Below are positions 1 to 48,100 of a stretch of DNA of 64,000 nucleotides, piece after piece. Made by a program: the position numbers and the translations under genes. Positions within the stretch are counted from its first letter, which is position 1. Every line of letters begins with the position of its first letter. The notes beneath the pieces are model-generated. The model did no database searches. It was not told the DNA's origin and saw only the letters and a program-made list of their open reading frames with translations. This stretch comes from Escherichia coli (GTDB taxonomy: Bacteria; Pseudomonadota; Gammaproteobacteria; Enterobacterales; Enterobacteriaceae), in the NCBI RefSeq assembly GCF_001677475.2, contig NZ_CP015229.1; one strand, written 5' to 3'.

Positions 1-208
1 CAGTCGAAAAGCCCGCGCCGCCGCGCCCTTTCAGACCAGCGTCTTTTACCTGATTAACGATTTCGTCCGGAGACAGCCCGGTCAGCGCCTTACGCGCGCC
101 TTCGTAACCGTTTTTGCTGCGATATTCGTCCAGCCACACTGGCTGTTTGTCATCGCGCAGACGCCAGGTCAGCGGATGCGTTTCGGGAGTACGGATAATG
201 TTTTTCAT
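1..208 (-). CDS. nuoF: NADH:quinone oxidoreductase subunit F, N-terminal part only (continues past window start)
   Basis: Reverse complement of 1-208 reads ATG AAA AAC ATT ATC CGT ACT CCC GAA ACG... ([32 protein letters not shown]); start at 206-208 overlaps nuoE stop (ATGA); nuo operon context. Confidence 0.85.
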
Positions 209-705
209 TTATACCGCTCCAGCAGTTCAGGGATCGCTTCCGGGGTCAGATGTGCGTGAGTATCCTCATCGATCATCATGTTTGGCCCTTTATCACAGTT
301 CCCCAGGCAGCAAGTTGGCAGCAGCGTAAAGCGACCGTCAAATGTCGTTTGTCCTGGTTTGATGTTCAGCTTTTTCTCGAGCGCCGCCTGAATACCCTGG
401 TAACCGTTGATATGACAGACCACGCTGTCGCAATAACGGATCACATGGCGGCCTACTGGCTGACGGAAGATCTGGCTATAAAACGTTGCCACGCCTTCGA
501 CATCGCTCGCCGGAATACCCAGCACATCGGCGATCGCGTGGATCGCGCCATCCGGCACCCAGCCACGCTGCTTCTGAACGATTTTCAGCGCTTCAATGGA
601 CGCCGCACGCGGGTCTTCGTAGTGGTGCATCTCGTGCTCAATCGCTTCACGCTCTGCCGCACTCAGCTCAAAAGCCTCGGTTTGTGGTTGTTGATTATCG
701 TGCAT
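205..705 (-). CDS. nuoE: NADH:quinone oxidoreductase subunit E (2Fe-2S)
   Basis: 166-aa ORF with Cys motifs ([17 protein letters not shown]) typical of NuoE; operon position between nuoF and nuoCD. Confidence 0.96.
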
Positions 706-707
706 AA

Positions 708-2498
708 TTAGCGGTCCACATCTGACATAACAAAATCGATACTGCCCAGATAAACAATCAGGTCAGACACCAGGCTGCCGCGGATCGCCGCCGGAATTTG
801 CTGCAAATGCGCATAACTCGGCGTACGGATACGGGTGCGATAACTCATGGTGCTACCGTCGCTGGTCAGGTAGTAACTGTTGATCCCCTTGGTCGCCTCA
901 ATCATCTGGAAAGATTCATTGGCTGGCATCACCGGCCCCCACGACACTTGCAGGAAGTGGGTGATCAGGGTTTCGATATGTTGCAGCGTGCGCTCTTTCG
1001 GCGGCGGCGTAGTCAGCGGATGATCCGCTTTGAACGGGCCTTCCGGCATGTTGTTGAGGCACTGCTCAAGAATGCGCAGACTCTGGCGCAGCTCTTCCAC
1101 TTTCAGCATTACGCGGGTGTAGCAGTCAGAAACACCACCACCCACCGGGATTTCAAAGTCGAAGTTTTCATAGCCAGAATACGGACGCGCCTTACGCACG
1201 TCGAAGTCGATCCCGGTGGCTCGCAGGCCCGCGCCAGTGGTGCCCCACTCCAGTGCCTCTTTCGCGCCATAGGCGGCAACGCCCTGGGAACGACCTTTCA
1301 GAATGGTATTTTGCAGCGCCGCTTTCTCGTAAGACGCCAGACGTTTCGGCATCCAGTCGAGGAACTCACGCAGCAGGCGATCCCAGCCGCGCGGCAGGTC
1401 GTGCGCTACGCCGCCAATACGGAACCACGCCGGGTGCATACGAAAACCCGTGATTGCTTCCACCAGATCGTAAATTTTCTGACGATCGGTAAAGGCGAAG
1501 AACACTGGCGTCATCGCGCCGACGTCCTGAATAAAGGTGGAGATATACAGCAGATGGCTGTTGATGCGGAACAGCTCAGAAAGCATTACGCGAATGACGT
1601 TAACGCGATCCGGCACGGTGATCCCGGCCAGTTTCTCTACAGCCAGCACGTAAGGCATTTCGTTAACGCAGCCGCCGAGGTATTCGATACGGTCGGTATA
1701 CGGAATGTAGCTATGCCAGGACTGGCGCTCGCCCATTTTCTCCGCACCACGGTGGTGGTAGCCGATGTCTGGTACGCAGTCGACAATCTCTTCGCCATCG
1801 AGCTGCAAAACGATACGGAAAGCACCGTGCGCCGACGGGTGGTTCGGACCGAGGTTGAGGAACATGAAGTCCTCGTTTTCGGTGCCGCGCTTCATCCCCC
1901 ACTCTTCCGGTTTGAAGGTCAGGGCTTCCATTTCCAGATCCTGTTTGGCTTTGGTCAGCTCAAACGGCGAGAATTCGGTAGCGCGCGCCGGGTAATCTTT
2001 ACGCAGCGGATGACCTTTCCAGGTTTGCGGCATCATGATGCGGCGCAAATTAGGATGACCGTCGAAAGTAATGCCAAACAGATCCCAGGTTTCACGCTCA
2101 TACCAGTTAGCGTTCGGGAACAGTTTGGTGAAGGTCGGTACGTGCAGGTCGTTTTCTGCCAGCGCCACCTTCAGCATGATGTCGCGGTTACGATCGATAG
2201 AAATCAGATGGTAGAAAACGGAAAAATCCGCGGCAGGTAACCCTTCGCGGTGTGTGCGCAGACGTTCGTCCATGCCGTGTAAGTCAAACAGCATGACGTA
2301 AGGTTTCGGCAGTTTCTTTAAGAAATCGCCAACTTCCAGTAATTGTTCACGCTTGATCCACACAACGGGAACCCCGGTGCGAGTCGCCTGAACAGTAAAG
2401 GCATCCGGCCCAAAACGGTTGCGCAGTTCGCCAATCACCGGATCATCAAGATGATCGCGGGTCTGCCAGGCGGGTTCTTGCGCGGTTAAGTCGGTCAT
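708..2498 (-). CDS. nuoC: NADH:quinone oxidoreductase fused subunit C/D
   Basis: 600-aa ORF (708-2510) matching fused NuoCD; likely start is the second ATG (MTDLTAQEP) at 2496-2498, preceded by a GGTGA Shine-Dalgarno-like sequence. Confidence 0.93.
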
Positions 2499-2603
2499 AT
2501 TGTTCACCATTGCAAATGGTCCGTGGTGACTGTCGGCGCAGTAAGCTTCGCGAAATAGATTTAGGAATAAGCGAAGAAAAATCCCTTTGCCGACAGGCGC
2601 AAA

Positions 2604-3266
2604 TTAAATCTCGTCAGGTGTACGCAGGTTGGTTACGGCAATGCGTTCACCGCGCTTGCGTTCGCGCTCTGATTGCATATTGGCGCGATAAACGCCCTGA
2701 TCGCCAACCACCCAGGAGAGCGGACGACGTTCTTTGCCGATAGATTCCTGCAACAGCATCAGTGCCTGCATGTACGCTTCAGGACGCGGCGGGCAGCCCG
2801 GGATATACACATCAACCGGGATGAATTTATCGACGCCCTGCACAACGGAATAAATATCGTACATACCACCAGAGTTGGCACAGGCACCCATTGAGATAAC
2901 CCATTTTGGTTCCAGCATCTGGTCATACAGACGCTGAATAACCGGTGCCATTTTGGTAAAGCAGGTTCCTGCAACCACCATCAGGTCAGCCTGACGCGGC
3001 GAAGCACGCAATACTTCTGCGCCAAAACGCGCCACGTCATGCACCGCGGTAAACGAAGTCACCATCTCAACGTAACAGCAGGAAAGACCGAAGTTATACG
3101 GCCAAATTGAGTTTTTACGACCCCAGTTAACCATGTCATTGAGCTTGCCCATAAACACGTTTTTGTTAACTTCTTGCTCCAGAGGGTCGGTTACGATCTC
3201 CTGCTTTTGCAGGGGGTAACGGTCGTTCTCACCGTTGGGATCTATGCGGGTGAGCGTATAATCCAT
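2604..3266 (-). CDS. nuoB: NADH:quinone oxidoreductase subunit B (4Fe-4S N2)
   Basis: 220-aa ORF with CCxxE...GxCxxxGG...GCPP motif pattern of NuoB. Confidence 0.96.
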
Positions 3267-3281
3267 CTTAATGCCTCGCGG

Positions 3282-3725
3282 TTAGCGTTGACGATTAGCG
3301 ATACTGTTCGTTTCCGGGTTCATACGCTCGCGGCGTGAACGCGCGGGCGTCCAGTCCAGCGCGCCAATACGCACCAGATAAACCAGACCTGCCAGTAACA
3401 CAAAAATAAAAATTGCAGCTTCCACAAAGCCTACCCAGCCGCTTTCGCGGATAGAGGTTGACCATGCGAACAGATACAGTGCTTCAACGTCGAAGATAAC
3501 GAAGAACATGGCCACCAGATAAAACTTGGCGGACAGGCGTAAGCGGGCGGAGCCGACCGAGTCGATACCGGATTCAAACGGCACGTTTTTCGACCTCGCG
3601 CGTGCGCGACCGCCTAAAAACCAACCGCCTACCAGCATCAGGCAACACAGGCCAATGGCAACGATAAGAAAGATAGCGAATGCCCAGTGATGAGCGATGA
3701 CTTCAGTGGATGTTGACATACTCAT
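3282..3725 (-). CDS. nuoA: NADH:quinone oxidoreductase subunit A (membrane)
   Basis: 147-aa hydrophobic ORF, first gene of the nuo operon. Confidence 0.95.
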
Positions 3726-4355
3726 TGCTTACTCATCAAAAGTAGCGCCAGATTCACTGCTCTTCACGGCAGATGGACGCCACATCGATTCATGGGGAGG
3801 AATAAAAAAAACCTTACAATCACTGTAGAAATTCTTTTATACAGCTAATTGATGTGGTCTTTTACTCCTTTCTATAACCTTTTGTCAACTTTAACAAAAG
3901 TTTCTTCACATTAGTTTACATAATATCAACACCATTAGCATTTAATGCCCTTTCACCCCAGATCCTTGACGACTCCAGGATAATTAGATGTTGTTGAATC
4001 GTGTCCGTTGTGAAGCAATGGAAAAAATACGGGTCTATTTTGACAGGAATTTGTGTCGATTCCTCCCCCCAAAAGAGAGTATTTTCTTGATCTGTGACAC
4101 GCTTTTGTCATTCCATAACAAAAACGCAGCAACAAATTTACGTATTTTTTAACATCATTGTAGCAGGTGATTTTTTTCAGGCGATTATTTGTGCGTTCGG
4201 GACGTGAATCTCTGGCGATTGAAAAATGAACAGTTTTGTGCGTTCTGCACGATACGAGGAAGGCTTTTTACTAAAAAAAAAGCCGCTGGGGTTTAAAATC
4301 CCGCCAGCGGCTCGTTTTTACACTATTGTTCCAGGAATTATCTATCGTCCGTCGA
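3726..4355 (-). promoter_or_regulatory. nuo operon promoter/regulatory region (630-bp AT-rich spacer between nuoA and lrhA)
   Basis: Long AT-rich non-coding spacer immediately upstream of nuoA; the nuo promoter region is known to integrate several global regulators; individual sites not resolved by eye. Confidence 0.45.
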
Positions 4356-5297
<942 letters not shown>

Positions 5298-5727
5298 TTA
5301 TCACTTACTGGCGGCTCATACTGAGCTGGTTAATGCTGTGCACACACAAACAAGCAATTCCATTTGTAATGTGCCTCCCTGGCAGTTTCATCCGGAACCC
5401 GGACGAAAGTAAAAATGCATATGAGTTGCACTAAAAAAGCGACTCACATTGTTCCGTTATAATGCCTGAAGTAGATCACAGAATATATCTTCAGGGATCG
5501 CATATCTATTAAGTTACTCACTCTTTTCTATTTATGACATGCGCGTGTTTGTATAAATGTAAATGTGAGTCCTTGTTCCACTCTCGTGCAGCATCGCTGG
5601 TCATACGCGAACACGTACAAACAGCAATGGTGAGGCGGCATCAAGAGCAGGGATCCGTCATTTATCCAAGCATTTTACCCCAAAAACCTTTTATTTATAA
5701 GGGTCATTGCGAATTATCTGATGCAAA

Positions 5728-5756
5728 GTTATGTTATGTTATGTTATGTTATGTTA
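5728..5756. repeat. Pentanucleotide tandem repeat (ATGTT)x5 with flanking partial units
   Basis: gtt atgtt atgtt atgtt atgtt atgtt a read directly at 5728-5756, inside the 934-bp lrhA-alaA intergenic region. Confidence 0.9.
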
Positions 5757-6228
5757 GGCAAAGTAATCTCCTATTATTAATAAGCACAACAAAACCTTTT
5801 TGAATATTAAATAATAATTAATTAGCACCATCCTCATTCATTAATACTGCTTAACAATAGTTTCACACCTTCCCCCCATTGCGACACCTCGGAAATCATC
5901 ACGCTGTTAAACTCTCCGTAATGAGTAAATATCATCATCGCGATTCATTAGTGAATTCTTAAACGAGGCATTTTCACACAATTATCTCACAGATAAAAAA
6001 ACCACACTTACAATAAATAATCAGAATAATTCACTATATAACATTACTTATTAAGCATATACACCTCATTATTTTACCATTATTAAGTTATTAACAGCAC
6101 AATCGAGCCTTCCCCTCTGGCAAAATCTTATTCTGCAGACCTTCAAAACACCGTCCTGGGGGAGTACATTGTTCTAAGCTGACTTCCACGGCAGGGAGTG
6201 GCGATAACAGCAAAAAAGGTCAAGATTC

Positions 6229-7446
6229 ATGTCCCCCATTGAAAAATCCAGCAAATTAGAGAATGTCTGTTATGACATCCGTGGTCCGGTGCTGAAAGAA
6301 GCAAAACGCCTGGAAGAAGAAGGTAACAAGGTACTGAAACTGAACATCGGCAACCCAGCCCCGTTCGGTTTTGACGCGCCAGATGAAATCCTCGTTGACG
6401 TGATACGCAACCTGCCTACCGCTCAAGGGTATTGCGATTCCAAAGGTCTTTACTCCGCGCGTAAAGCCATCATGCAGCACTACCAGGCTCGTGGCATGCG
6501 TGATGTTACCGTGGAAGATATTTACATCGGCAATGGTGTATCGGAGCTTATCGTTCAGGCAATGCAGGCATTGCTGAACAGCGGGGACGAAATGTTGGTT
6601 CCTGCACCAGATTACCCACTATGGACCGCGGCGGTTTCGCTTTCCAGCGGTAAAGCGGTGCATTATCTTTGCGATGAATCCTCTGACTGGTTCCCGGACC
6701 TCGATGATATTCGCGCTAAAATTACGCCTCGTACGCGTGGAATCGTTATTATCAACCCAAATAACCCAACCGGCGCGGTATATTCCAAAGAGCTTTTAAT
6801 GGAGATTGTGGAGATTGCACGTCAGCATAATCTCATTATCTTCGCCGATGAAATTTATGACAAAATTCTCTACGACGACGCTGAGCATCACTCAATTGCG
6901 CCGCTGGCACCTGACCTGCTGACCATTACCTTTAACGGACTGTCGAAAACGTACCGCGTTGCAGGCTTCCGTCAGGGGTGGATGGTGTTGAACGGGCCGA
7001 AAAAACACGCCAAAGGCTACATCGAAGGTCTGGAAATGCTGGCTTCAATGCGCCTGTGTGCTAACGTTCCTGCGCAACACGCCATTCAGACCGCGCTGGG
7101 TGGTTATCAGAGCATCAGTGAATTTATTACCCCTGGCGGTCGTCTTTATGAGCAGCGTAACCGCGCGTGGGAATTGATCAACGATATTCCGGGCGTTTCC
7201 TGCGTGAAACCTCGTGGTGCGCTGTATATGTTCCCGAAAATCGACGCCAAACGCTTTAACATTCACGACGATCAGAAAATGGTGCTGGATTTCCTGTTGC
7301 AGGAAAAAGTTCTGTTGGTGCAAGGGACGGCATTCAACTGGCCGTGGCCGGATCACTTCCGCATTGTCACGCTACCGCGTGTCGATGATATCGAGCTGTC
7401 TTTGAGCAAGTTCGCGCGTTTCCTTTCTGGTTATCATCAGCTGTAA
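6229..7446 (+). CDS. alaA: Glutamate-pyruvate aminotransferase (class I PLP aminotransferase)
   Basis: 405-aa ORF with aminotransferase class I motifs (NPNNPTGAVY, SKTYRVAGFRQGW); former yfbQ position. Confidence 0.93.
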   Translation: MSPIEKSSKLENVCYDIRGPVLKEAKRLEEEGNKVLKLNIGNPAPFGFDAPDEILVDVIRNLPTAQGYCDSKGLYSARKAIMQHYQARGMRDVTVEDIYIGNGVSELIVQAMQALLNSGDEMLVPAPDYPLWTAAVSLSSGKAVHYLCDESSDWFPDLDDIRAKITPRTRGIVIINPNNPTGAVYSKELLMEIVEIARQHNLIIFADEIYDKILYDDAEHHSIAPLAPDLLTITFNGLSKTYRVAGFRQGWMVLNGPKKHAKGYIEGLEMLASMRLCANVPAQHAIQTALGGYQSISEFITPGGRLYEQRNRAWELINDIPGVSCVKPRGALYMFPKIDAKRFNIHDDQKMVLDFLLQEKVLLVQGTAFNWPWPDHFRIVTLPRVDDIELSLSKFARFLSGYHQL

Positions 7447-7455
7447 TCTTAATTT

Positions 7456-7482
7456 CACTGCCGGAGATTGCATCCGGCAGTG
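7456..7482 (+). terminator. Perfect 10-bp stem hairpin downstream of alaA (cactgccgga-gattgca-tccggcagtg)
   Basis: Inverted repeat read directly; lies 10 bp after alaA stop; weak T-tract so terminator function is tentative. Confidence 0.45.
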
Positions 7483-7529
7483 TTATCCCGCCACAATGAC
7501 CTGATGATGTCATCATACGTAAGGTCACT

Positions 7530-8129
7530 ATGAAACAGAGCCATTTTTTTGCCCATCTCTCCCGCCTGAAACTCATTAACCGCTGGCCGCTAATGCGCAA
7601 CGTGCGGACGGAAAATGTGTCCGAACACAGTTTGCAAGTAGCGATGGTCGCCCATGCGCTGGCAGCTATCAAAAATCGTAAATTTGGCGGTAATGTCAAC
7701 GCCGAACGTATCGCTTTACTGGCGATGTACCACGATGCTTCAGAAGTGCTCACCGGCGATCTCCCTACTCCGGTGAAATACTTCAATTCGCAAATCGCTC
7801 AGGAATACAAGGCTATTGAAAAAATCGCTCAGCAAAAACTGGTCGATATGGTTCCGGAAGAGCTGCGGGATATCTTTGCGCCGTTAATTGACGAGCATGC
7901 ATATAGCGATGAAGAAAAATCGCTGGTGAAACAGGCAGATGCACTGTGTGCATATCTGAAATGTCTGGAAGAACTCGCGGCCGGAAATAATGAATTCTTG
8001 CTGGCAAAAACGCGACTGGAAGCGACGCTTGAAGCGCGTCGCAGCCAGGAGATGGACTACTTCATGGAAGTATTTGTTCCCAGCTTCCATCTTTCGCTCG
8101 ATGAGATTAGCCAGGATTCACCGCTGTAA
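7530..8129 (+). CDS. yfbR: HD-domain 5'-deoxynucleotidase
   Basis: 199-aa ORF with HD motif ([14 protein letters not shown]...[15 protein letters not shown]). Confidence 0.92.
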
Positions 8130-8138
8130 GCAGCTGGA

Positions 8139-8183
8139 GTCTGCGTCGCATCAGGCAATAAGCGCCGGATGCGACATCAGGCT
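8139..8183. repeat. REP-like palindromic element between convergent yfbR and yfbS
   Basis: tctgcgtcgcatcaggc...gccggatgcgacatcaggc shares the GCCGGATGCG / CGCATCAGGC cores of E. coli REP sequences. Confidence 0.6.
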
Positions 8184-8187
8184 CTTG

Positions 8188-10020
8188 TCAAAACGGAAAC
8201 AGCATCGGGATCATCACCACACAAACTGCCATCACGATAATGGTGAACGGTACCCCCAACTTCACAAAGTCACTGAAGCTGTAATTTCCCGGACCTAAAA
8301 CCAGTGTATTAACAGGTGAAGAAACCGGTGTCATAAAGGCGGCAGATGCTGCCATCGCCACGACCATCGCGAATGGATAAGGCGACACACCCATCGTTTT
8401 GGCAGCAGCCAGCGCAATCGGAGCCATCAACACCGCCGTCGCGGTATTAGAGATAAATAGCCCAATAACCGCCGACAAGACAAACAAACACCCCAGCATC
8501 ATATGTGGCCCATAACCGCCGCCAATGTCCATCAGCCCTTTCACCGCCAGCGCGACACCTCCCGTTTTCTGTAATGCCACAGCAAACGGCATCATCCCAA
8601 CGATCAAAATAATGCTCGGCCAGTGAATGGATTTATAGGCGCTTTCAGCATCTATACAGCGGAATTTCCCCATCAGCAGGCAGGCGATGATAGCGGCAAC
8701 AGGATTAGGAATTTCATCTGTCAGCATTAACGCCACCATTAGCACCAGACAGAAAATGGCATGGGGTGCCTGGCTGTGCGCGGGCGATGCTTCACTCACC
8801 TCTTCCGGTAAGTTCAGCGCTACGAAGTCGCGGCCCTGTTTGGCCAGCATACCGATCAGTTTCCAGTTACCAACAACCAGGATGATATCGCCCAGCAGCA
8901 GAGGCTCATCCGCCAGCGAACCTTCCAGCGCCACGCCATTGCGCTTTAGCCCCACCACATTCAGTCCGTAGCGGGTACGAAAACCAATTTCGCGCACCGA
9001 TTTACCAATAAGTTCTGACTCAGGAATTAATGAAATCTCTGCCATGCCCACATCAAGGGCCTGGTCAGAAAAATACTCGCCGCGCAGTACCATCGGCTCC
9101 AGCAATTGCTCACTACAAAATTGCCGGAGATCGACATCAGCCGCAGACATATCAATAAGCAAAACGTCACGCGCGCGAAATTCAGAAACCCCATTAACGT
9201 TCACGATAACGCGACGAAAACGCCGCCAGCGTTCAACACCGATGACGTTAGCGCCATAACGCTCACGTAATTTGAGATCGTCCAGCCGTTGACCAATCAT
9301 TGGCGATCCGGGGCGAATAGCCAGACGTCGCGCACGCCCGGTCAGTCGATATTCACGGATAAGATCGCGAAAGGTTCGACGCGTCCAGCCTTCGCGCTGC
9401 GGGGTCTGGGTATCCCCTTTCAGCATGAAACGCATCACTAACATATACAAAATACCCAGCACCAGCACGACCAGGCCAATAGGTGTTACGCTAAAGAAAC
9501 TGAAGCCGTGATAGCCTTCACGCAGCAATTCACTGTTGACTACCAGGTTCGGCGGCGTCGCCACCAGCGTCATCATGCCGCTAATCAGCCCGGCAAAACT
9601 TAACGGCATCATCAGACGCGACGGCGAAGTTTGCATACGCATGGCAACGCTTAACACCACGGGAATAAAGATAGCGACAACGCCGGTTGAACTCATAAAC
9701 GCGCCAAGCCCCGCAACGGTCAGCATCAACAAAACCAACATTTTGATTTCACTGTTGCCCGCCACTTTGACCAGCCATGTTCCCATTACGGTGGCAACAC
9801 CGGTACGGACCAAACCATCGCCAATAATAAACAAGGCGGCAATCAGGACAACGTTAGGATCAGAAAAGCCGGAAAATACTTCGGGGACCGTCAGCGTTCC
9901 GCTTAATGCAAACGCGACAATAACAAACAAAGCGACCGCATCCATACGCACTCTGCCCGTCGCAAACAAGACGATGGCAACGGCCAGTAATGAAAGAACC
10001 CAAATCAATTCACCGTTCAC
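8188..10020 (-). CDS. yfbS: Putative anion transporter with two cytoplasmic TrkA-C domains
   Basis: 610-aa ORF with hydrophobic N- and C-terminal halves flanking a soluble central region; matches YfbS. Confidence 0.88.
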
Positions 10021-10063
10021 AACTTATCCTTGTTAATTGAGGGGGATGGACTTGATTCTGCCA

Positions 10064-10089
10064 TAAAAAAGCCCCGACGAGACGGGGCT
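10064..10089 (-). terminator. Rho-independent terminator downstream of hxpA/yfbT
   Basis: agccccg-acgaga-cggggct hairpin; on the minus strand it is followed by a U-run (plus-strand aaaaaa at 10065-10070). Confidence 0.6.
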
Positions 10090-10107
10090 AAATCATGATC
10101 AGGTGTT

Positions 10108-10758
10108 TCACTGAATAATAACATCGCCATTTGGCTGTTTGGTCACAGTAATTTGCTCCAGACTGTGGAGGACCAAATCGACCTCATTCAGGCGCGGGGT
10201 ATCTGCCGGAGCGTTAACCGCAATGACATGGCAACCCGCCGCCAGGCCAGAAAGCACGCCAGCGGGAGCATCTTCCACCACCACACACTCCTGCGGCGCA
10301 AGCCCCAGCAGCTGCGCGCCTAACAGATACGCATCAGGTTCTGGTTTTCCGCGCTTCACTCGCTCAGCGGTCACAAACACCTCTGGCGCGGGAAGCCCCG
10401 CTATTTTATGGCGCGCTCGCGCTACCGGCATGGAGCCAGAAGTCACAATGGCCCACGGAATACCTGCTTTATTCAAATGATTGAGTAAGGCGATTGCCCC
10501 GGGAAGCGCGGTAATACCCTCGGTTTCCGTGGCCTCGATTTGCTCCAGACGCGTAAACTCGGCGGCAATATCAGCCTCGGATTTGCCCGCCATAAAATGG
10601 CGCAGAGAGGTGATCGCCTGTTTACCGTGAATGAAAGCCAGCACCTCTTCCGGCGCTAACCCATGACGTCTGGCCCAGTTGCTCCACGCCCGCTCTACCG
10701 CAGGCAGGGAATCCACCAGCGTTCCATCAAGATCAAACAGAAAACCTTTGCACCGCAC
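10108..10758 (-). CDS. hxpA: HAD-superfamily hexitol/sugar phosphatase
   Basis: 216-aa ORF with HAD motif I (FLFDLDGTLVDS) and later HAD motifs; former yfbT. Confidence 0.9.
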   Translation of the reverse strand: MRCKGFLFDLDGTLVDSLPAVERAWSNWARRHGLAPEEVLAFIHGKQAITSLRHFMAGKSEADIAAEFTRLEQIEATETEGITALPGAIALLNHLNKAGIPWAIVTSGSMPVARARHKIAGLPAPEVFVTAERVKRGKPEPDAYLLGAQLLGLAPQECVVVEDAPAGVLSGLAAGCHVIAVNAPADTPRLNEVDLVLHSLEQITVTKQPNGDVIIQ

Positions 10759-10768
10759 GCGGGCCTCC

Positions 10769-11344
<576 letters not shown>

Positions 11345-11800
11345 TTACAAATCATCAAGGAAAGTTTTATCCAGTTGTTTGAAGGCACGCTTAAGCGTGT
11401 CAGCTAATGCCTGGTAATCAGGCTTGCCTTCAACGGGTGCCAACACCTGTCCAGACTCCTGCAATTTACCGCGAACTTCATAAAACCAGTTGAGGATAGC
11501 AGGGGGTAATGGCGTTACAGAACGCTTGCCCAGCCACCACAATCCCTGCATGGGTAAACTTAAGGCGAACAGCGCTGTGGCAACTGCTGGCCCAAGCTGA
11601 CCGCCCAGGGCAATCTGCCAGCAGAGAGTAAATACGGCGATCGGCGGCATAAAACGGATCGCATAACGCGTCATCTTGATAACGCGATTTTCGACAAAGA
11701 CCGGGGCAAGGCGTTTTTCCAGCGGCCACGTCTTTGAGTAATGCTGTCCCCGGCGAAACAAGCTAAAAAAATTAACAGAACGATTATCCGGCGTTGACAT
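11345..11800 (-). CDS. yfbV: UPF0208 inner-membrane protein YfbV
   Basis: 151-aa ORF with two predicted TM helices; divergent from ackA. Confidence 0.9.
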
Positions 11801-12137
11801 GCTTCACCTCAACTTCACATATAAAGATTCAAAAATTTGTGCAAATTCACAACTCAGCGGGACAACGTTCAAAACATTTTGTCTTCCATACCCACTATCA
11901 GGTATCCTTTAGCAGCCTGAAGGCCTAAGTAGTACATATTCATTGAGTCGTCAAATTCATATACATTATGCCATTGGCTGAAAATTACGCAAAATGGCAT
12001 AGACTCAAGATATTTCTTCCATCATGCAAAAAAAATTTGCAGTGCATGATGTTAATCATAAATGTCGGTGTCATCATGCGCTACGCTCTATGGCTCCCTG
12101 ACGTTTTTTTAGCCACGTATCAATTATAGGTACTTCC

Positions 12138-13340
12138 ATGTCGAGTAAGTTAGTACTGGTTCTGAACTGCGGTAGTTCTTCACTGAAATTTGCCATCATC
12201 GATGCAGTAAATGGTGAAGAGTACCTTTCTGGTTTAGCCGAATGTTTCCACCTGCCCGAAGCACGTATCAAATGGAAAATGGACGGCAATAAACAGGAAG
12301 CGGCTTTAGGTGCAGGCGCCGCTCACAGCGAAGCGCTCAACTTTATCGTTAATACTATTCTGGCACAAAAACCAGAACTGTCTGCGCAGCTGACTGCTAT
12401 CGGTCACCGTATCGTACACGGCGGCGAAAAGTATACCAGCTCCGTAGTGATCGATGAGTCTGTTATTCAGGGTATCAAAGATGCAGCTTCTTTTGCACCG
12501 CTGCACAACCCGGCTCACCTGATCGGTATCGAAGAAGCTCTGAAATCTTTCCCACAGCTGAAAGACAAAAACGTTGCTGTATTTGACACCGCGTTCCACC
12601 AGACTATGCCGGAAGAGTCTTACCTCTACGCCCTGCCGTACAACCTGTACAAAGAGCACGGCATCCGTCGTTACGGCGCGCACGGCACCAGCCACTTCTA
12701 TGTAACCCAGGAAGCGGCAAAAATGCTGAACAAACCGGTAGAAGAACTGAACATCATCACCTGCCACCTGGGCAACGGTGGTTCCGTTTCTGCTATCCGC
12801 AACGGTAAATGCGTTGACACCTCTATGGGCCTGACCCCGCTGGAAGGTCTGGTCATGGGTACCCGTTCTGGTGATATCGATCCGGCGATCATCTTCCACC
12901 TGCACGACACCCTGGGCATGAGCGTTGACGCAATCAACAAACTGCTGACCAAAGAGTCTGGCCTGCTGGGTCTGACCGAAGTGACCAGCGACTGCCGCTA
13001 TGTTGAAGACAACTACGCGACGAAAGAAGACGCGAAGCGCGCAATGGACGTTTACTGCCACCGCCTGGCGAAATACATCGGTGCCTACACTGCGCTGATG
13101 GATGGTCGTCTGGACGCTGTTGTATTCACCGGTGGTATCGGTGAAAATGCCGCGATGGTTCGTGAACTGTCTCTGGGCAAACTGGGCGTGCTGGGCTTTG
13201 AAGTTGATCATGAACGCAACCTGGCTGCACGTTTCGGCAAATCTGGTTTCATCAACAAAGAAGGTACCCGTCCTGCGGTGGTTATCCCAACCAACGAAGA
13301 ACTGGTTATCGCGCAAGACGCGAGCCGCCTGACTGCCTGA
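12138..13340 (+). CDS. ackA: Acetate kinase
   Basis: 400-aa ORF, N-terminus [20 protein letters not shown], acetate/propionate kinase signature. Confidence 0.97.
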
Positions 13341-13344
13341 TTTC

Positions 13345-13368
13345 ACACCGCCAGCTCAGCTGGCGGTG
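13345..13368 (+). terminator. Perfect hairpin in ackA-pta spacer (caccgccagc-tca-gctggcggtg), probable partial terminator
   Basis: 10-bp perfect inverted repeat 5 nt after ackA stop, followed by ctgttttgt. Confidence 0.5.
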
Positions 13369-13414
13369 CTGTTTTGTAACCCGCCAAATCGGCGGTAACG
13401 AAAGAGGATAAACC

Positions 13415-15559
13415 GTGTCCCGTATTATTATGCTGATCCCTACCGGAACCAGCGTCGGTCTGACCAGCGTCAGCCTTGGCGTGATCCGTGCAATGGAACG
13501 CAAAGGCGTTCGTCTGAGCGTTTTCAAACCTATCGCTCAGCCGCGTACCGGTGGCGATGCGCCCGATCAGACTACGACTATCGTGCGTGCGAACTCTTCC
13601 ACCACGACGGCCGCTGAACCGCTGAAAATGAGCTACGTTGAAGGTCTGCTTTCCAGCAATCAGAAAGATGTGCTGATGGAAGAGATCGTCGCAAACTACC
13701 ACGCTAACACCAAAGACGCTGAAGTCGTTCTGGTTGAAGGTCTGGTCCCGACACGTAAGCACCAGTTTGCCCAGTCTCTGAACTACGAAATCGCTAAAAC
13801 GCTGAATGCGGAAATCGTCTTCGTTATGTCTCAGGGCACTGACACCCCGGAACAGCTGAAAGAGCGTATCGAACTGACCCGCAACAGCTTCGGCGGTGCC
13901 AAAAACACCAACATCACCGGCGTTATCGTTAACAAACTGAATGCACCGGTTGATGAACAGGGTCGTACTCGCCCGGATCTGTCCGAGATTTTCGACGACT
14001 CTTCCAAAGCTAAAGTAAACAATGTTGATCCGGCGAAGCTGCAAGAATCCAGCCCGCTGCCGGTTCTCGGCGCTGTGCCGTGGAGCTTTGACCTGATCGC
14101 GACTCGTGCGATCGATATGGCTCGCCACCTGAATGCGACCATCATCAACGAAGGCGACATCAATACTCGCCGCGTTAAATCCGTCACTTTCTGCGCACGC
14201 AGCATTCCGCACATGCTGGAGCACTTCCGTGCCGGTTCTCTGCTGGTGACTTCCGCAGACCGCCCTGACGTGCTGGTTGCCGCTTGCCTGGCTGCCATGA
14301 ACGGCGTAGAAATCGCTGCCCTGCTGCTGACTGGCGGCTACGAAATGGACGCGCGCATTTCTAAACTGTGCGAACGTGCTTTCGCTACCGGCCTGCCGGT
14401 ATTTATGGTGAACACCAATACCTGGCAGACTTCTCTGAGCCTGCAGAGCTTCAACCTGGAAGTTCCGGTTGACGATCACGAGCGTATCGAGAAAGTTCAG
14501 GAATACGTTGCTAACTACATCAACGCTGACTGGATCGATTCTCTGACTGCCACTTCTGAGCGCAGCCGTCGTCTGTCTCCGCCAGCGTTCCGTTATCAGC
14601 TGACTGAACTTGCGCGCAAAGCGGGCAAACGTATTGTTCTGCCGGAAGGTGACGAACCGCGTACCGTTAAAGCAGCCGCTATCTGTGCTGAACGTGGTAT
14701 CGCAACTTGCGTACTGCTGGGTAATCCGGCAGAGATCAACCGTGTTGCAGCGTCTCAGGGTGTAGAACTGGGTGCAGGCATTGAAATCGTTGATCCAGAA
14801 GTGGTTCGCGAAAGCTATGTTGGTCGTCTGGTCGAACTGCGTAAGAACAAAGGCATGACCGAAACCGTTGCCCGCGAACAGCTGGAAGATAACGTGGTTC
14901 TCGGTACGCTGATGCTGGAACAGGACGAAGTTGATGGTCTGGTTTCCGGTGCTGTTCACACCACCGCAAACACCATCCGTCCGCCGCTGCAGCTGATCAA
15001 AACGGCTCCGGGCAGCTCCCTGGTATCTTCCGTGTTCTTCATGCTGCTGCCAGAACAGGTTTACGTTTACGGTGACTGTGCGATCAACCCGGATCCGACC
15101 GCAGAACAGCTGGCAGAAATCGCGATTCAGTCCGCTGATTCCGCTGCGGCCTTCGGTATCGAACCGCGCGTTGCTATGCTCTCCTACTCCACCGGGACTT
15201 CTGGTGCTGGTAGCGACGTAGAAAAAGTTCGCGAAGCAACTCGTCTGGCGCAGGAAAAACGTCCTGACCTGATGATCGACGGTCCGCTGCAGTACGACGC
15301 TGCGGTAATGGCTGACGTTGCGAAATCCAAAGCGCCGAACTCTCCGGTTGCAGGTCGCGCTACCGTGTTCATCTTCCCGGATCTGAACACCGGTAACACC
15401 ACCTACAAAGCGGTACAGCGTTCTGCCGACCTGATCTCCATCGGGCCGATGCTGCAGGGTATGCGCAAGCCGGTTAACGACCTGTCCCGTGGCGCACTGG
15501 TTGACGATATCGTCTACACCATCGCGCTGACTGCGATTCAGTCTGCACAGCAGCAGTAA
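13415..15559 (+). CDS. pta: Phosphate acetyltransferase
   Basis: 714-aa ORF starting at GTG (translated M; N-terminus [26 protein letters not shown]), C-terminal PTA domain. Confidence 0.97.
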
Positions 15560-15599
15560 TCTCGTCATCATCCGCAGCTTTGCGCTGCGGATATCGGAA

Positions 15600-15628
15600 C
15601 CGGAAATAGTGACTATTTCCGGTTTTTT
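15600..15628 (+). terminator. Rho-independent terminator of the ackA-pta operon
   Basis: ccggaaatag-tga-ctatttccgg followed by tttttt; an upstream second hairpin ccgcagc-tttgc-gctgcgg at 15572-15590. Confidence 0.8.
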
Positions 15629-15748
15629 ATTCTCTTAATTTGCATTAATCCTTTCTGATTATCTTGCTTAACTGCGCTGCATCAATGAATTGCGCCATCT
15701 CACTTTGCATACTTACCACTTTGTTTTGTGCAAGGGAATATTTGCGCT

Positions 15749-17269
15749 ATGTCCGCAATCACTGAATCCAAACCAACCAGAAGATGGGCAATGCCCGATA
15801 CGTTGGTGATTATCTTTTTTGTTGCTATTTTAACCAGCCTTGCCACCTGGGTAGTTCCGGTGGGGATGTTTGACAGTCAGGAAGTGCAGTATCAGGTTGA
15901 TGGTCAAACAAAAACTCGCAAAGTCGTAGATCCACACTCTTTTCGCATTCTGACTAACGAAGCAGGCGAACCTGAGTATCACCGCGTACAGCTGTTTACG
16001 ACGGGCGATGAACGCCCGGGCCTGATGAACTTCCCGTTTGAAGGGTTAACCTCAGGATCGAAATACGGGACAGCCGTTGGCATCATCATGTTTATGCTGG
16101 TGATTGGCGGCGCGTTTGGCATTGTGATGCGTACAGGAACCATTGATAACGGTATCCTGGCGCTTATTCGCCATACCCGCGGGAATGAAATTCTCTTTAT
16201 TCCTGCGCTGTTTATTCTGTTTTCACTTGGCGGCGCGGTATTTGGTATGGGAGAAGAGGCCGTCGCCTTTGCCATTATCATCGCACCGCTAATGGTCCGG
16301 CTGGGCTATGACAGTATTACCACCGTCCTGGTGACTTATATTGCCACGCAAATCGGTTTTGCCAGTTCGTGGATGAACCCGTTTTGTGTGGTTGTTGCTC
16401 AGGGGATTGCCGGCGTTCCGGTGCTTTCTGGCTCCGGGTTGCGCATCGTGGTGTGGGTTATCGCCACTCTGATTGGCTTGATCTTTACCATGGTGTACGC
16501 CTCACGAGTGAAAAAGAATCCTCTTCTGTCACGCGTGCATGAGTCCGACCGCTTCTTTCGTGAAAAGCAGGCGGATGTTGAACAACGTCCGTTTACCTTT
16601 GGTGACTGGCTGGTATTGATTGTCCTGACCGCCGTAATGGTCTGGGTGATTTGGGGCGTGATCGTTAATGCCTGGTTTATTCCAGAAATTGCCAGCCAGT
16701 TCTTCACCATGGGTCTGGTGATTGGCATCATCGGCGTTGTTTTCCGCCTTAACGGCATGACGGTTAATACCATGGCTTCATCCTTTACCGAAGGGGCGCG
16801 AATGATGATCGCCCCTGCCCTGCTGGTGGGTTTCGCCAAAGGGATTTTGCTGCTGGTCGGTAATGGTGAAGCGGGTGAGGCCAGCGTGTTAAATACCATC
16901 CTCAACAGCATTGCCAATGCCATTAGCGGTCTGGACAATGCGGTCGCGGCCTGGTTTATGTTGCTCTTCCAGGCAGTATTTAATTTCTTCGTGACGTCCG
17001 GTTCTGGTCAGGCGGCGTTAACCATGCCGTTACTGGCACCGCTTGGCGATCTGGTCGGTGTTAACCGTCAGGTTACCGTGCTGGCGTTCCAGTTTGGTGA
17101 TGGCTTCAGCCACATCATTTACCCAACCTCAGCTTCGTTAATGGCGACGCTCGGTGTGTGCCGGGTGGACTTCCGTAACTGGCTGAAGGTGGGCGCGACC
17201 CTGCTTGGACTGCTGTTTATTATGTCCAGCGTCGTAGTGATCGGCGCTCAGTTGATGGGCTACCACTAA
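15749..17269 (+). CDS. yfcC: YfcC-family inner-membrane transporter (putative C4-dicarboxylate/anaerobic carrier-like)
   Basis: Polytopic membrane ORF; ORF track starts at 15728 (513 aa) but the ATG at 15749 (MSAITESKP, 506 aa) matches the known N-terminus. Confidence 0.86.
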   Translation: MSAITESKPTRRWAMPDTLVIIFFVAILTSLATWVVPVGMFDSQEVQYQVDGQTKTRKVVDPHSFRILTNEAGEPEYHRVQLFTTGDERPGLMNFPFEGLTSGSKYGTAVGIIMFMLVIGGAFGIVMRTGTIDNGILALIRHTRGNEILFIPALFILFSLGGAVFGMGEEAVAFAIIIAPLMVRLGYDSITTVLVTYIATQIGFASSWMNPFCVVVAQGIAGVPVLSGSGLRIVVWVIATLIGLIFTMVYASRVKKNPLLSRVHESDRFFREKQADVEQRPFTFGDWLVLIVLTAVMVWVIWGVIVNAWFIPEIASQFFTMGLVIGIIGVVFRLNGMTVNTMASSFTEGARMMIAPALLVGFAKGILLLVGNGEAGEASVLNTILNSIANAISGLDNAVAAWFMLLFQAVFNFFVTSGSGQAALTMPLLAPLGDLVGVNRQVTVLAFQFGDGFSHIIYPTSASLMATLGVCRVDFRNWLKVGATLLGLLFIMSSVVVIGAQLMGYH

Positions 17270-17276
17270 AAATGTT

Positions 17277-17302
17277 AAGAGCCGCAATTGCGGCTCTTTT
17301 TT
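17277..17302. terminator. Bidirectional rho-independent terminator between convergent yfcC and yfcD
   Basis: aagagccgc-aatt-gcggctctt with T-run on plus and A-run on the 5' side. Confidence 0.8.
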
Positions 17303-17844
17303 CATTCTGCCGTTTCAGTCTCTACGGCTTCATTTTTGGCATTGCGCTTCATCCACAACGCCAGCGCTTTCAGCGAGTCTGGAGTGAACTCATCGCAGCG
17401 TGCGGTGATTTCTTCCGGCGTCAGCCAGCAAACTTCACTGACTTCATCTTCCTGTAGGGCGAAGGGACCGTGAGAGACGCAGCTGAACAATGCGCCCCAG
17501 ACACGGCAATTTTTATCTTCGAAATAGAACTGCCCGTGCTCGGCAAAGGGGACACCGGCAATGCCCAACTCTTCTTCCGCTTCGCGGCGCGCGGATTCCA
17601 GCAGTTGCTCATCGGCCTGGACTACACCGCCTGCGGTCGCATCTAACATGCCGGGTAAAAAGTCTTTTGTCTCGGTACGACGCTGGACCAGAATTTTGCC
17701 CATGCCATCATGCACGACGATGTAAGTTGCACGATGACGCAGACACTGTGCCCGCATTTGTTCCCGGCTGGCTTGTGCAATGACTTCATTCTCTTCATTG
17801 ACAATATCCACCCATTCAGTACTTGCCAAACGACGCTGTTCCAT
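17302..17844 (-). CDS. yfcD: Nudix hydrolase
   Basis: 180-aa ORF containing a Nudix box ([23 protein letters not shown]). Confidence 0.9.
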
Positions 17845-17901
17845 TATCAGGAAACCTTCTTTTTCTGGCGCTCTTACGGCGCATTTTGAGTTGTGGGTAA
17901 A

Positions 17902-18456
17902 TTACGGATTAATCGCGACCTGCGCAATGATACTTTGATCATTGAGTGCGATTACACTAAGTACGTCATTATCCAGCATGCCATAACTCGCCGGATGACC
18001 GCCTTTAGGAATACTCACCGAGCCGGGGTTGAAGTGGAAAATCTCCCCCCGCTGTTCTGCCACTGGCAGATGGGTATGACCGTACACCAGCACATCGTTC
18101 TGGTTTAAAGCAGGTAGATTTTCCGGGCCAAAAAGATGACCATGCGTCAAAAACAGACGTTGTTTTTCCAGTAATACCTGTTGCCACGGCGCGGTTATCG
18201 GGAAATGCAGCAGCATTTGATCCACTTCGCTGTCGCAGTTGCCGCGCACAGCGATAACCTTATGTGCCACTTCATTAAGCCGTTCAGCGACTTTGGCTGG
18301 CGCGTAACCCTCCGGTAAAGCATTACGCGGGCCGTGATTCAACACGTCGCCAAGGATCACCAGCCACTGGGCACCGCTTTGGGCAAACAACTCCAGAACA
18401 CGTTCCGTCGCCGGTAACGACCCATGAATGTCCGATGCAAACATCAGTTTCATCAC
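17902..18456 (-). CDS. yfcE: Mn-dependent phosphodiesterase (calcineurin-like metallophosphatase)
   Basis: 184-aa ORF with DxH...GD...GNxD...GH metallophosphatase motifs (ASDIHGS, ILGDVLNHGPRN, VRGNCD, THGHLF). Confidence 0.9.
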   Translation of the reverse strand: MMKLMFASDIHGSLPATERVLELFAQSGAQWLVILGDVLNHGPRNALPEGYAPAKVAERLNEVAHKVIAVRGNCDSEVDQMLLHFPITAPWQQVLLEKQRLFLTHGHLFGPENLPALNQNDVLVYGHTHLPVAEQRGEIFHFNPGSVSIPKGGHPASYGMLDNDVLSVIALNDQSIIAQVAINP

Positions 18457-18459
18457 TCA

Positions 18460-19936
<1,477 letters not shown>

Positions 19937-19992
19937 CAGAAACAGGTTCTCGTGTATTATTTCATCCTAAGTAAAACAACGGAGAACCTGCA

Positions 19993-20355
19993 ATGGCACA
20001 ACCTGCCGCTATTATTCGTATAAAGAACCTTCGTTTACGTACGTTTATCGGAATTAAGGAAGAAGAAATTAACAACCGTCAGGATATTGTTATCAATGTG
20101 ACGATCCACTACCCCGCCGATAAAGCGCGCACTAGCGAAGATATCAACGATGCGCTGAATTATCGCACTGTAACGAAAAACATTATTCAGCATGTAGAGA
20201 ATAACCGTTTCTCTTTGCTGGAAAAATTAACTCAGGATGTGCTCGATATCGCACGTGAACATCACTGGGTGACGTATGCTGAAGTGGAGATCGATAAACT
20301 GCACGCGCTGCGCTACGCTGATTCGGTATCCATGACCTTAAGCTGGCAGCGTTAA
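19993..20355 (+). CDS. folX: Dihydroneopterin triphosphate 2'-epimerase
   Basis: 120-aa ORF of the FolB/FolX fold ([21 protein letters not shown]). Confidence 0.92.
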
Positions 20356-29701: not shown

Positions 29702-30364
29702 TTAATTCGGCGTATAGCCCATTACCACGCCACTTAAGCCAGAAAGTTGCTTCAACTCACCCAGCGAACCTTTCAGCTTATCTTTCGAGGCATCCGGCCC
29801 AACCAGAATACGGGTAATTTTACCCTGCACTGGCGTGGATGGCGACGTATAAACCCGATAACCGGCACCGCGCAGCTTACCGACAATCTCATTCACTTTA
29901 TCGGCATTTTTCAGCGCACCCAGTTGCACAACATAGGCTTTACCCGTCGGTGCAGCTTTTTCTTCCACGACCGGCTTCGGTTCTGGCTTCGGCGCAGGTG
30001 GTGCTTCAACCTTTGGTTTAGGCGGCTCCACCGGTTTCGGCTTCGGTGGGGCGACCGGTGCAGGTTCCGGTTCAAACTCGGTGTTATTGGCTGCAATAGT
30101 GGCCGGATCGAGCGACGGTGCTGCGGCATCACCTGCCCGCACCTCTTCCGCTGCGCCTTCCGGCGGCTGCGTCGGCAACGCCTGGGTGGCGGCTGGCATC
30201 ATATCAGGCTCATCGCGATCGCCCGCTTTTGGAACCAGCGGGATAGCCGCAAACTCATCCTGATAATGTTTTTTCTGCCCGTCCAGAAGCCCTGGAAGTA
30301 CAATCACCCCCAGCGCCACCAGCACGATCGTGCCCACTAACCGATTCTGAAACTTACTTGCCAC
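29702..30364 (-). CDS. dedD: Cell-division protein DedD (SPOR domain)
   Basis: ORF track 29702-30382 begins at a TTG; the in-frame GTG at 30362-30364 gives MASKFQNRLVGTIVLVALG (220 aa); proline-rich linker and C-terminal SPOR-like region; overlaps folC 3' end by 11 nt. Confidence 0.85.
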   Translation of the reverse strand: MASKFQNRLVGTIVLVALGVIVLPGLLDGQKKHYQDEFAAIPLVPKAGDRDEPDMMPAATQALPTQPPEGAAEEVRAGDAAAPSLDPATIAANNTEFEPEPAPVAPPKPKPVEPPKPKVEAPPAPKPEPKPVVEEKAAPTGKAYVVQLGALKNADKVNEIVGKLRGAGYRVYTSPSTPVQGKITRILVGPDASKDKLKGSLGELKQLSGLSGVVMGYTPN

Positions 30365-47880: not shown

Positions 47881-48100
47881 ATGACAACAACCGGATATAG
47901 AATTTGCAGGTCGGATAAGATGCGCCAGCATTGCATCCGACAAGAAATGCCGGATGCGGCGTGAACACCTTATCCAGCCTACGCAAGACTGAATGACAAC
48001 AACCGGATATGGAATTTGTAGGTCGGATAAGATGCGTCAGCATCGCATCCGACAAAAAGTGCCGGATGCGGCGTAAACGCCATATCCTGCCTGGGCGCTA
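47881..48100. repeat. Tandemly duplicated BIME block (2 x about 112 bp, each with an inverted REP pair)
   Basis: Units starting atgacaacaaccggatat at 47881 and 47993 align end to end with a few substitutions; each contains ggtcggataagatgcg...gcatccgac and gccggatgcggcgt... Confidence 0.85.

What the first reader, a model, noticed from the sequence alone, without database searches (positions are those of the whole stretch)
5728..5756. (ATGTT)5 pentanucleotide repeat in the 934-bp lrhA-alaA spacer
A perfect five-unit pentanucleotide repeat lies about 435 bp upstream of the lrhA start codon and 470 bp upstream of alaA, in a long AT-rich non-coding region. Such repeats are slippage-prone and can alter promoter or UTR spacing. 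The spacer is unusually long for E. coli and has no convincing ORF.
Basis: seen in the sequence. Interest (0 to 1): 0.4.

Follow-up and report, generated by a model that had tools for sequence, protein, structure and literature searches.

The report
Variable 5-base repeat upstream of lrhA promoter
A real five-base DNA stutter sits just upstream of the promoter of the motility regulator gene lrhA; its copy number differs among E. coli strains (usually about 3, here about 6), but nothing shows that this changes gene expression, so it is an ordinary slippage polymorphism in an interesting place.

Summary
The repeat is real. Window 5728-5756 is a perfect 29-nt array, (GTTAT)5.8 or five ATGTT units, far longer than chance gives. 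It lies in the 934-bp lrhA-alaA spacer, which has no annotated gene.

It is not in the lrhA 5' UTR. The published 371-nt UTR puts the start site at 5665, so the repeat spans -63 to -91. It is upstream of the core promoter and does not change -35/-10 spacing.

Copy number is polymorphic. Among 5,426 complete E. coli genomes, about 95% carry 2.8 units, about 2-3% carry 1.8, 61 carry 3.8, 4 carry 4.8 and none carries 5.8. The window's allele is the longest seen, and an independent assembly of the same lineage shares it.

Identical or near-identical flanking haplotypes carry different unit numbers, so slippage has recurred at least eight times. In one case, four near-identical ST131 isolates from Sweden differ by a single unit.

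The repeat sits inside a block (-1 to about -160) that is nearly invariant across Escherichia species, all with 2.8 units.

Best reading: a slippage-generated, near-neutral length polymorphism in lrhA's upstream regulatory region. A spacing effect on lrhA transcription is possible but untested. It is not a contingency switch.

The parts
5728..5756 (.). Perfect pentanucleotide repeat, (GTTAT)5.8 or (ATGTT)5. It lies at -63 to -91 relative to the lrhA transcription start. It is +15 bp (three units) longer than the modal E. coli allele.
4356..5294 (-). lrhA coding sequence (312 aa, LysR-type regulator)
5295..5665 (-). lrhA 5' UTR (371 nt in K-12, the target of UhpU, ArcZ and RprA). The start site is inferred to be the A at 5665.
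   Evidence: PMC10578931 and PMC4152368. Coordinates were placed by arithmetic.
5672..5677 (-). Inferred lrhA -10 hexamer TAAAAT, at -12 to -7 from the start site at 5665. The -35 region around 5695-5700 (TTATAA) is weak.
   Evidence: Read. The element GCATTTTACCC is invariant across Escherichia species.
5666..5727 (-). Promoter-proximal conserved block (-1 to -62). 84% of columns are invariant across ten Escherichia sequences.
5757..5826 (-). Distal conserved AT-rich block, at -92 to -161 here and -77 to -146 in the modal allele. Measured over 5743-5826 (this block plus the last 2.8 repeat units), 88% of columns are invariant. It is a candidate site for upstream regulators, none of which has been mapped.
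   Evidence: Lrp, CpxR and LrhA act on this promoter, but their site positions are not known.
6229..7446 (+). alaA coding sequence (405 aa), divergent from lrhA. The repeat ends 473 bp upstream of it.

Best explanation
The feature is a short microsatellite produced and resized by replication slippage. It sits in the upstream regulatory region of the lrhA promoter, at -63 to -76 in the usual allele and -63 to -91 here. The ancestral and overwhelmingly common state in Escherichia is 2.8 units. The lineage that this window comes from has gained three units (+15 bp), the longest allele seen.

Shown: the repeat itself, its position relative to the published transcription start, the whole-unit polymorphism, and its recurrence on identical haplotypes.

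Inferred: slippage as the mechanism, and near-neutrality. The expansion moves the conserved distal AT-rich block 15 bp (about 1.4 helical turns) further from the core promoter without touching -35/-10 spacing or the transcript. At most it would modestly change lrhA transcription. It is not an on/off phase-variation switch.
For: The array is perfect and far beyond chance.

Alleles differ only by whole 5-nt units.

Allele counts in 5,426 complete genomes:
- 2.8 units: about 5,160.
- 1.8 units: at least about 100, and at most about 185 (125 query matches, of which about 23 may be partial).
- 3.8 units: 61.
- 4.8 units: 4.
- 5.8 units or more: 0.

Different unit numbers occur on flanking haplotypes with 0-4 differences in 2.8 kb:
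- strain 30859 (2.8) against 98194 (4.8): 0 differences.
- MS8345 (2.8) against AH21E028 (1.8): 0 differences.
- 10205 (1.8) against A8 (3.8): 1 difference.
- O157:H7 (2.8) against O55:H7 (3.8): 4 differences.

Four Swedish ST131 isolates differ over 40 kb only by one repeat unit and one SNP.

The single-step alleles (1.8, 3.8) are much more common than the two-step allele (4.8). This is what stepwise slippage predicts. It is not what helical-phase selection would predict.

An independent assembly of the window's lineage (GCA_016118665.1, 99.995% identical over 22 kb) has the same 5.8-unit allele.

The start site and -10 lie downstream of the repeat.
Against: The repeat lies inside a block that is 84-88% invariant across Escherichia species, while its neighbours are about 50% invariant. 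All five non-coli lineages keep exactly 2.8 units. This could mean unit number is under purifying selection and therefore matters.

Lrp, CpxR and LrhA itself are all reported to act on this promoter. Their sites are unmapped in the literature I could read, so an overlap with the repeat cannot be excluded.

No expression data exist for any allele.
Confidence: 0.7

Rival explanations
1. Tuning knob. Unit number adjusts lrhA promoter strength, either by changing the distance and helical face between the conserved distal AT-rich block (or a regulator bound there) and RNA polymerase, or by changing the number of pentamer half-sites for a regulator. Recurrent variants would then be selected adjustments of LrhA level, affecting motility, fimbriae, RpoS and CRISPR-Cas.
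For: The position, -63 to -91, is the zone where upstream activators act. That zone assignment rests on established knowledge of class I activation, not a test made here.

The surrounding block is conserved across species.

The promoter is reported to be activated by Lrp, CpxR and LrhA.

LrhA is reported to be differentially expressed among E. coli strains (PMC12968389).

Variants arise repeatedly, including within ST131.

IS1 insertions at about -42 show that natural variants do uncouple the upstream block from the core promoter.
Against: No expression measurement exists for any allele.

Half-turn alleles (+5 or -5 bp) are the most common variants. One of them occurs in at least 50 genomes that share one flanking haplotype, several of them labelled ST131. 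This argues against a strong phase requirement.

No good CpxR box (GTAAA-N5-GTAAA) overlaps the repeat.

The TGTTA units are spaced 5 or 10 bp apart, not the 11 bp of ArcA boxes. The literature search listed no paper focused on ArcA at lrhA, but the listed papers were not read for an ArcA-lrhA link.
Confidence: 0.2
2. Classical contingency locus: a hypermutable repeat giving reversible on/off phase variation of lrhA.
For: It is a perfect repeat near a promoter of a regulator of surface structures. Unit number differs between near-identical isolates.
Against: About 95% of genomes and all sampled sister species share one allele.

Whole groups of genomes keep the same variant allele.

There are only 2-6 units.

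The repeat is outside the -35/-10 spacer, the transcript and any ORF.
Confidence: 0.05
3. The repeat is transcribed or coding: part of the lrhA 5' UTR, of an unannotated small protein (the 89-aa ORF at 5534-5803), or of an sRNA.
For: An ORF crosses it. Hfq-bound RNA fragments map upstream of lrhA.
Against: The UTR ends at 5665, 63 nt short of the repeat.

The ORF length jumps between 67 and 89 aa with each 5-nt step.

No feature other than occasional IS1 transposase genes is annotated there in the RefSeq records listed.

There is no Rfam match.
Confidence: 0.03
4. Assembly or sequencing artefact.
For: None specific.
Against: The same 5.8-unit allele is in an independent assembly.

Variant alleles are shared by many independently sequenced genomes.

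Whole-unit steps are not a typical sequencing error.
Confidence: 0.02

Closest known systems
Short simple-sequence-repeat polymorphisms in E. coli intergenic regions (as surveyed by Gur-Arie et al. 2000 and used in MLVA typing). Cited from my own knowledge, not re-read here.
   Same: A perfect short-unit tandem array in non-coding DNA, with whole-unit length differences among strains arising by slippage. Most strains share a modal allele.
   Different: I found no description of this particular locus. The library search pairing lrhA/yfbQ with repeat terms returned no paper containing lrhA or yfbQ among the 15 listed. It lies inside a conserved promoter-upstream block of a master regulator.
Neisseria meningitidis nadA upstream TAAA tract, a repeat upstream of the -35 that modulates promoter strength by re-spacing regulator sites. 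Cited from my own knowledge.
   Same: A repeat located upstream of the core promoter. Unit number changes the distance between upstream regulatory DNA and RNA polymerase, without altering -35/-10 spacing.
   Different: The nadA tract is long, hypervariable within clones, and has measured effects on expression. Here there are 2-6 units, one allele in about 95% of genomes, and no expression data.
Haemophilus influenzae hifA/hifB TA repeats and similar promoter-spacer contingency loci. Cited from my own knowledge.
   Same: A simple repeat associated with a promoter that controls surface or behaviour traits.
   Different: Those repeats lie between -35 and -10 and switch the promoter on and off. 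This one lies at -63 and beyond.
IS-element insertions upstream of motility regulators in E. coli (flhDC upstream, and here IS1 at about -42 of lrhA in strain TUM2826).
   Same: Natural structural variation that separates a promoter from its upstream regulatory DNA.
   Different: A transposition event of about 0.8 kb, rather than 5-nt slippage steps.

Membership tests
Simple sequence repeat (microsatellite) | Head-to-tail perfect copies of a 1-6 bp unit, longer than chance | tested here: met
   29 nt, period 5, 100% matches. The maximum in shuffles was 16 nt.
Simple sequence repeat (microsatellite) | Length polymorphism in whole-unit steps among close relatives | tested here: met
   Alleles of 9, 14, 19, 24 and 29 nt. 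Flanks are identical for different alleles.
Phase-variable contingency locus (repeat-mediated promoter switch) | Repeat lies between -35 and -10, or inside the reading frame, so that unit changes switch expression on or off | tested here: not met
   The repeat is at -63 to -91 from the start site at 5665. No conserved ORF crosses it.
Phase-variable contingency locus (repeat-mediated promoter switch) | Hypervariability: many alleles within a clone or species, with no dominant allele | tested here: not met
   About 95% of 5,426 genomes carry 2.8 units, as do five other Escherichia lineages. At least 50 genomes sharing one flanking haplotype, several labelled ST131, all carry 3.8 units. One within-ST131 difference was seen.
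Phase-variable contingency locus (repeat-mediated promoter switch) | Expression state correlates with unit number | not testable with these tools
   Needs reporter fusions or RNA measurements.
Upstream-tract promoter modulator (nadA type) | Repeat upstream of the -35, between regulator sites and the core promoter | tested here: inconclusive
   The position fits, and conserved blocks lie on both sides. However, no regulator site has been mapped there.
lrhA 5' UTR (sRNA/Hfq target region) | Lies within the 371-nt transcribed leader | tested here: not met
   The leader spans 5295-5665 and the repeat starts at 5728.
CpxR binding site | GTAAA-N5-GTAAA direct repeat | tested here: not met
   No match with 2 or fewer mismatches at or next to the repeat, in either the 5.8 or the 2.8 allele.
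ArcA box | TGTTA direct repeats with 11-bp centre-to-centre spacing (from my own knowledge of the consensus) | tested here: not met
   TGTTA units are spaced 5 and 10 bp apart. The literature search listed no paper focused on ArcA at lrhA, but the listed papers were not read for this link.

The most novel reading that the evidence does not exclude
The pentamer tract is an evolutionary tuning knob for the master regulator LrhA. Whole-unit slippage re-spaces a genus-conserved upstream activator block relative to the lrhA core promoter. Recurrent variants would then be selected shifts in LrhA level, and hence in motility, fimbriation, RpoS and CRISPR-Cas activity. These variants include the 3.8-unit allele in ST131, one apparently arising among near-identical Swedish isolates (same-patient origin is inferred from strain names only), and the 5.8-unit allele of this lineage.
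Probability: 0.12. Interest if true: 0.55.

Novelty: new member of a known kind. Interest (0 to 1): 0.27.

Why it matters
LrhA represses flhDC (motility), influences fimbriae and RpoS, and was recently reported to activate CRISPR-Cas, with expression that differs among strains.

A mutable tract 63 bp upstream of its start site, inside a block conserved across the genus, is a plausible source of heritable expression differences and is cheap to test.

If it has no effect, it is simply a modestly informative typing marker. It would also illustrate that short repeats in E. coli slip repeatedly yet stay dominated by one allele.

Tried and rejected
- Rfam scan of 4300-6500 found nothing relevant; the only hit was a chance miRNA match at E = 0.39.
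- The promoter scan found a promoter-like site on the minus strand whose -35 (ATAACA) lies in the repeat and whose -10 is GATAAT at 5713-5718. The region had fewer promoter-like sites than its shuffles, and no start site is reported there. I did not adopt it.
- The CpxR box scan was negative at the repeat. The LysR-type T-N11-A boxes it found lie in AT-rich DNA at 5808-5824 and elsewhere and are not specific.
- I considered an ArcA box reading of TGTTA and rejected it on spacing. The literature search listed no paper focused on ArcA at lrhA; I did not read the listed papers for that link.
- I considered the 89-aa ORF across the repeat and rejected it.
- The genome-contig scan with a variable gap found only 2.8-unit alleles in other Escherichia lineages. 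It also returned one chance match in a Methanoperedens MAG (L007) that is not the repeat.
- The metagenome scan gave only 4 loci, all with 2.8 units.
- The Shimizu 2016 paper, which reports CpxR binding to the lrhA promoter, is not held. The LrhA motif of PMC12968389 appears only in a figure. Regulator sites therefore could not be placed.
- I first suspected the window was Shigella, because its best identity to complete E. coli genomes is 98.8%. However, its exact Pta protein is labelled E. coli in all sources, and no IS1 was found in the window.
- A 7.8-unit synthetic query made BLAST split the match into two pieces, so its '>=99%' band is not meaningful. I used only its single-piece bands.

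Full report
**Observation.** Window 5728-5756 is GTTATGTTATGTTATGTTATGTTATGTTA. This is a perfect period-5 array of 29 nt: 5.8 GTTAT units, or five ATGTT units. It is the longest period-5 array in the 64 kb. In 100 dinucleotide-preserving shuffles the longest such array averaged 12.8 nt and never exceeded 16 nt.

The flanking ORFs at 4356-5294 (-) and 6229-7446 (+) correspond to genes annotated lrhA and alaA in matching RefSeq records. The spacer is 934 bp. The repeat starts 434 bp from the lrhA ATG and ends 473 bp from the alaA ATG. In the RefSeq records listed, nothing is annotated in this spacer except occasional IS1 copies. Rfam finds nothing there.

**Position relative to transcription.** The lrhA mRNA of K-12 has a 371-nt 5' UTR, which is the target of UhpU, ArcZ and RprA (PMC10578931). 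Independent Hfq co-immunoprecipitation and Northern data support a long leader (PMC4152368).

Counting 371 nt from the ATG at 5294 puts the start site at the A at 5665. A TAAAAT -10 hexamer lies at 5677-5672 on the minus strand, exactly -12 to -7. This element is invariant across Escherichia species.

The repeat therefore spans -63 to -91 (-63 to -76 in the usual allele). It is outside the transcript and upstream of the -35 region. It can change neither UTR length nor -35/-10 spacing.

**Copy number among strains.** The window's spacer is 15 bp longer than almost every E. coli spacer, which is 919 bp. Shimada et al. quote 920 bp for K-12 (PMC3946193). The alignment shows the difference is exactly three repeat units.

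I queried 5,426 complete genomes with allele-specific sequences:

| Units | Genomes |
|---|---|
| 1.8 | at least about 100, at most about 185 (125 query matches, about 23 possibly partial) |
| 2.8 | about 5,160 (about 95%) |
| 3.8 | 61 |
| 4.8 | 4 |
| 5.8 or more | 0 |

They are read from BLAST identity bands and are approximate for 1.8 and 2.8 units.

The window's allele is the longest seen. It is not an artefact. An independent NCBI assembly (GCA_016118665.1) is 99.995% identical to the window over 22 kb and carries the same 29-nt array.

The window's lineage is labelled E. coli. It has no relative closer than 98.8% among complete RefSeq genomes.

**Recurrence.** I compared 2 x 1,400 bp of flanking sequence for 18 sequences: the window, 16 genomes and one metagenome contig.

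- Strain 30859_5#96 (2.8 units) and strain 98194 (4.8 units) have identical flanks. Two 3.8-unit strains, one labelled ST131, differ from them by 1 SNP.
- MS8345 (2.8) and AH21E028 (1.8) have identical flanks. BCE049 (4.8) differs from them by 2 SNPs.
- Strain 10205 (1.8) and A8 (3.8) differ by 1 SNP.
- O157:H7 (2.8) and O55:H7 DEC5E (3.8) differ by 4 SNPs.

Together with the 2014C-3338/WP9-S17 pair (4.8) and the window (5.8), this requires at least eight independent slippage events.

There is also a case among near-identical isolates. Four Swedish isolates with consecutive accessions were used as ST131 references in PMC10866875. They are identical over 40 kb except for one SNP in 4/4 and one extra unit in 4/1-1. 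Isolates 4/0 (UTI), 4/4 (feces) and 2/0 (UTI) have 2.8 units, and 4/1-1 (feces) has 3.8. That 4/0, 4/1-1 and 4/4 come from one patient is my inference from the strain names and record metadata. I could not verify it.

**Conservation.** Five non-coli Escherichia lineages were sampled: E. whittamii, Escherichia sp. E1V33, Escherichia sp. MOD1-EC7003, and two divergent genomes labelled E. coli. They are 90-95% identical to the window. All keep exactly 2.8 units with identical immediate flanks.

The fraction of invariant columns differs sharply by segment:

| Segment | Invariant columns |
|---|---|
| -1 to -62 | 84% |
| Last 2.8 repeat units plus the distal AT-rich block (to 5826) | 88% |
| 5' end of the UTR (5561-5665) | 50% |
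| Middle of the spacer (5827-6080) | 52% |

The repeat is therefore embedded in a conserved promoter-upstream module.

The literature reports that Lrp directly activates lrhA (ChIP-seq, 10.1101/276808). It also reports that CpxR-P binds the lrhA promoter (review PMC9387321 citing Shimizu 2016) and that LrhA autoactivates (PMC3946378). I could not obtain any mapped site. My scan for a CpxR box was negative at the repeat. The TGTTA units have the wrong spacing for an ArcA box.

**Interpretation.** The evidence shows a slippage-prone microsatellite. Its ancestral and dominant state is 2.8 units, and it has expanded to 5.8 in this lineage.

The expansion moves the distal conserved block 15 bp further from the core promoter, about 1.4 helical turns. 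Whether that matters is untested.

Two observations argue against a strong constraint on spacing. Half-turn alleles (+5 and -5 bp) are the commonest variants. One of them (3.8 units) occurs in at least 50 genomes that share one flanking haplotype, several of them labelled ST131. The allele frequencies fall off with step number, as a stepwise mutation model predicts.

Against simple neutrality stands the genus-wide retention of exactly 2.8 units inside a conserved block. This could also just reflect the low slippage rate of a 14-nt tract.

A classical contingency switch is unlikely. There are few units, one allele dominates, variant alleles are shared across groups of genomes, and the tract lies outside the -35/-10 spacer.

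I put about 0.7 on a near-neutral slippage polymorphism. I put about 0.2 on a real but modest tuning effect on lrhA transcription.

**Novelty and verdict.** The kind of feature is well known. I found no description of this particular locus: the search pairing lrhA/yfbQ with repeat terms returned no paper containing lrhA or yfbQ among those listed. It is a new member of a known kind, of modest interest.

Noticed in passing
window 31279-31352 (within ORF 30354-31655, minus strand): A perfect 33-bp tandem duplication lies inside folC. It duplicates the 11 residues HTASFAEIESA and gives a 433-aa product; the usual 422 aa is from my own knowledge. In the complete E. coli genomes listed with full coverage, the 271-nt query spans only 239 nt, so they lack the duplication.
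   Followed up: partly
window 62395-62434 (within ORF 61926-63218, plus strand): (TTGATA)6.7 is a perfect in-frame hexanucleotide repeat encoding an Asp-Ile run in a 430-aa hypothetical protein with no NCBIfam match. The gene is present in only 1,225 of 5,426 complete genomes. The matched length varies from 136 to 191 nt, so this repeat is also length-polymorphic.
   Followed up: partly
L002 1913-2710 (strain TUM2826), equivalent to window about 5706; also hit H15 (strain B7A): IS1 is inserted at about -42 of the lrhA start site, with a 9-bp target duplication TAAGGGTCA. It separates the core promoter from the repeat and the conserved upstream block. A second strain, B7A, also has IS1 in this spacer.
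   Followed up: partly
window 5666: There is a window-specific substitution (C here on the plus strand). It falls at position -1 of the inferred lrhA start site. Of the 11 sequences aligned, nine have G and the E. whittamii and MOD1-EC7003 sequences have T.
   Followed up: no
L029-L032 (Swedish ST131 isolates 4/1-1, 4/4, 2/0, 4/0): Over 40 kb around lrhA these four genomes are identical except for one SNP in 4/4 and one extra GTTAT unit in 4/1-1. This suggests a very recent slippage event, possibly within one host.
   Followed up: partly
whole window (1-20000 tested): The window's lineage is labelled E. coli, but its best match among 5,426 complete RefSeq E. coli genomes is only 98.8% identical over 20 kb. 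It is an under-sampled lineage. Its exact Pta protein is recorded on only 14 to 23 contigs.
   Followed up: partly
window 47877-48092: A 112-bp unit is repeated 1.9 times at 90% identity. Its sequence looks like REP/BIME palindromic elements.
   Followed up: no
window 5561-5665 versus 5295-5560: Across Escherichia species, the 5'-most 100 nt of the lrhA leader is only about 50% invariant. The rest of the leader, where the sRNAs pair, is 86-94% invariant.
   Followed up: no
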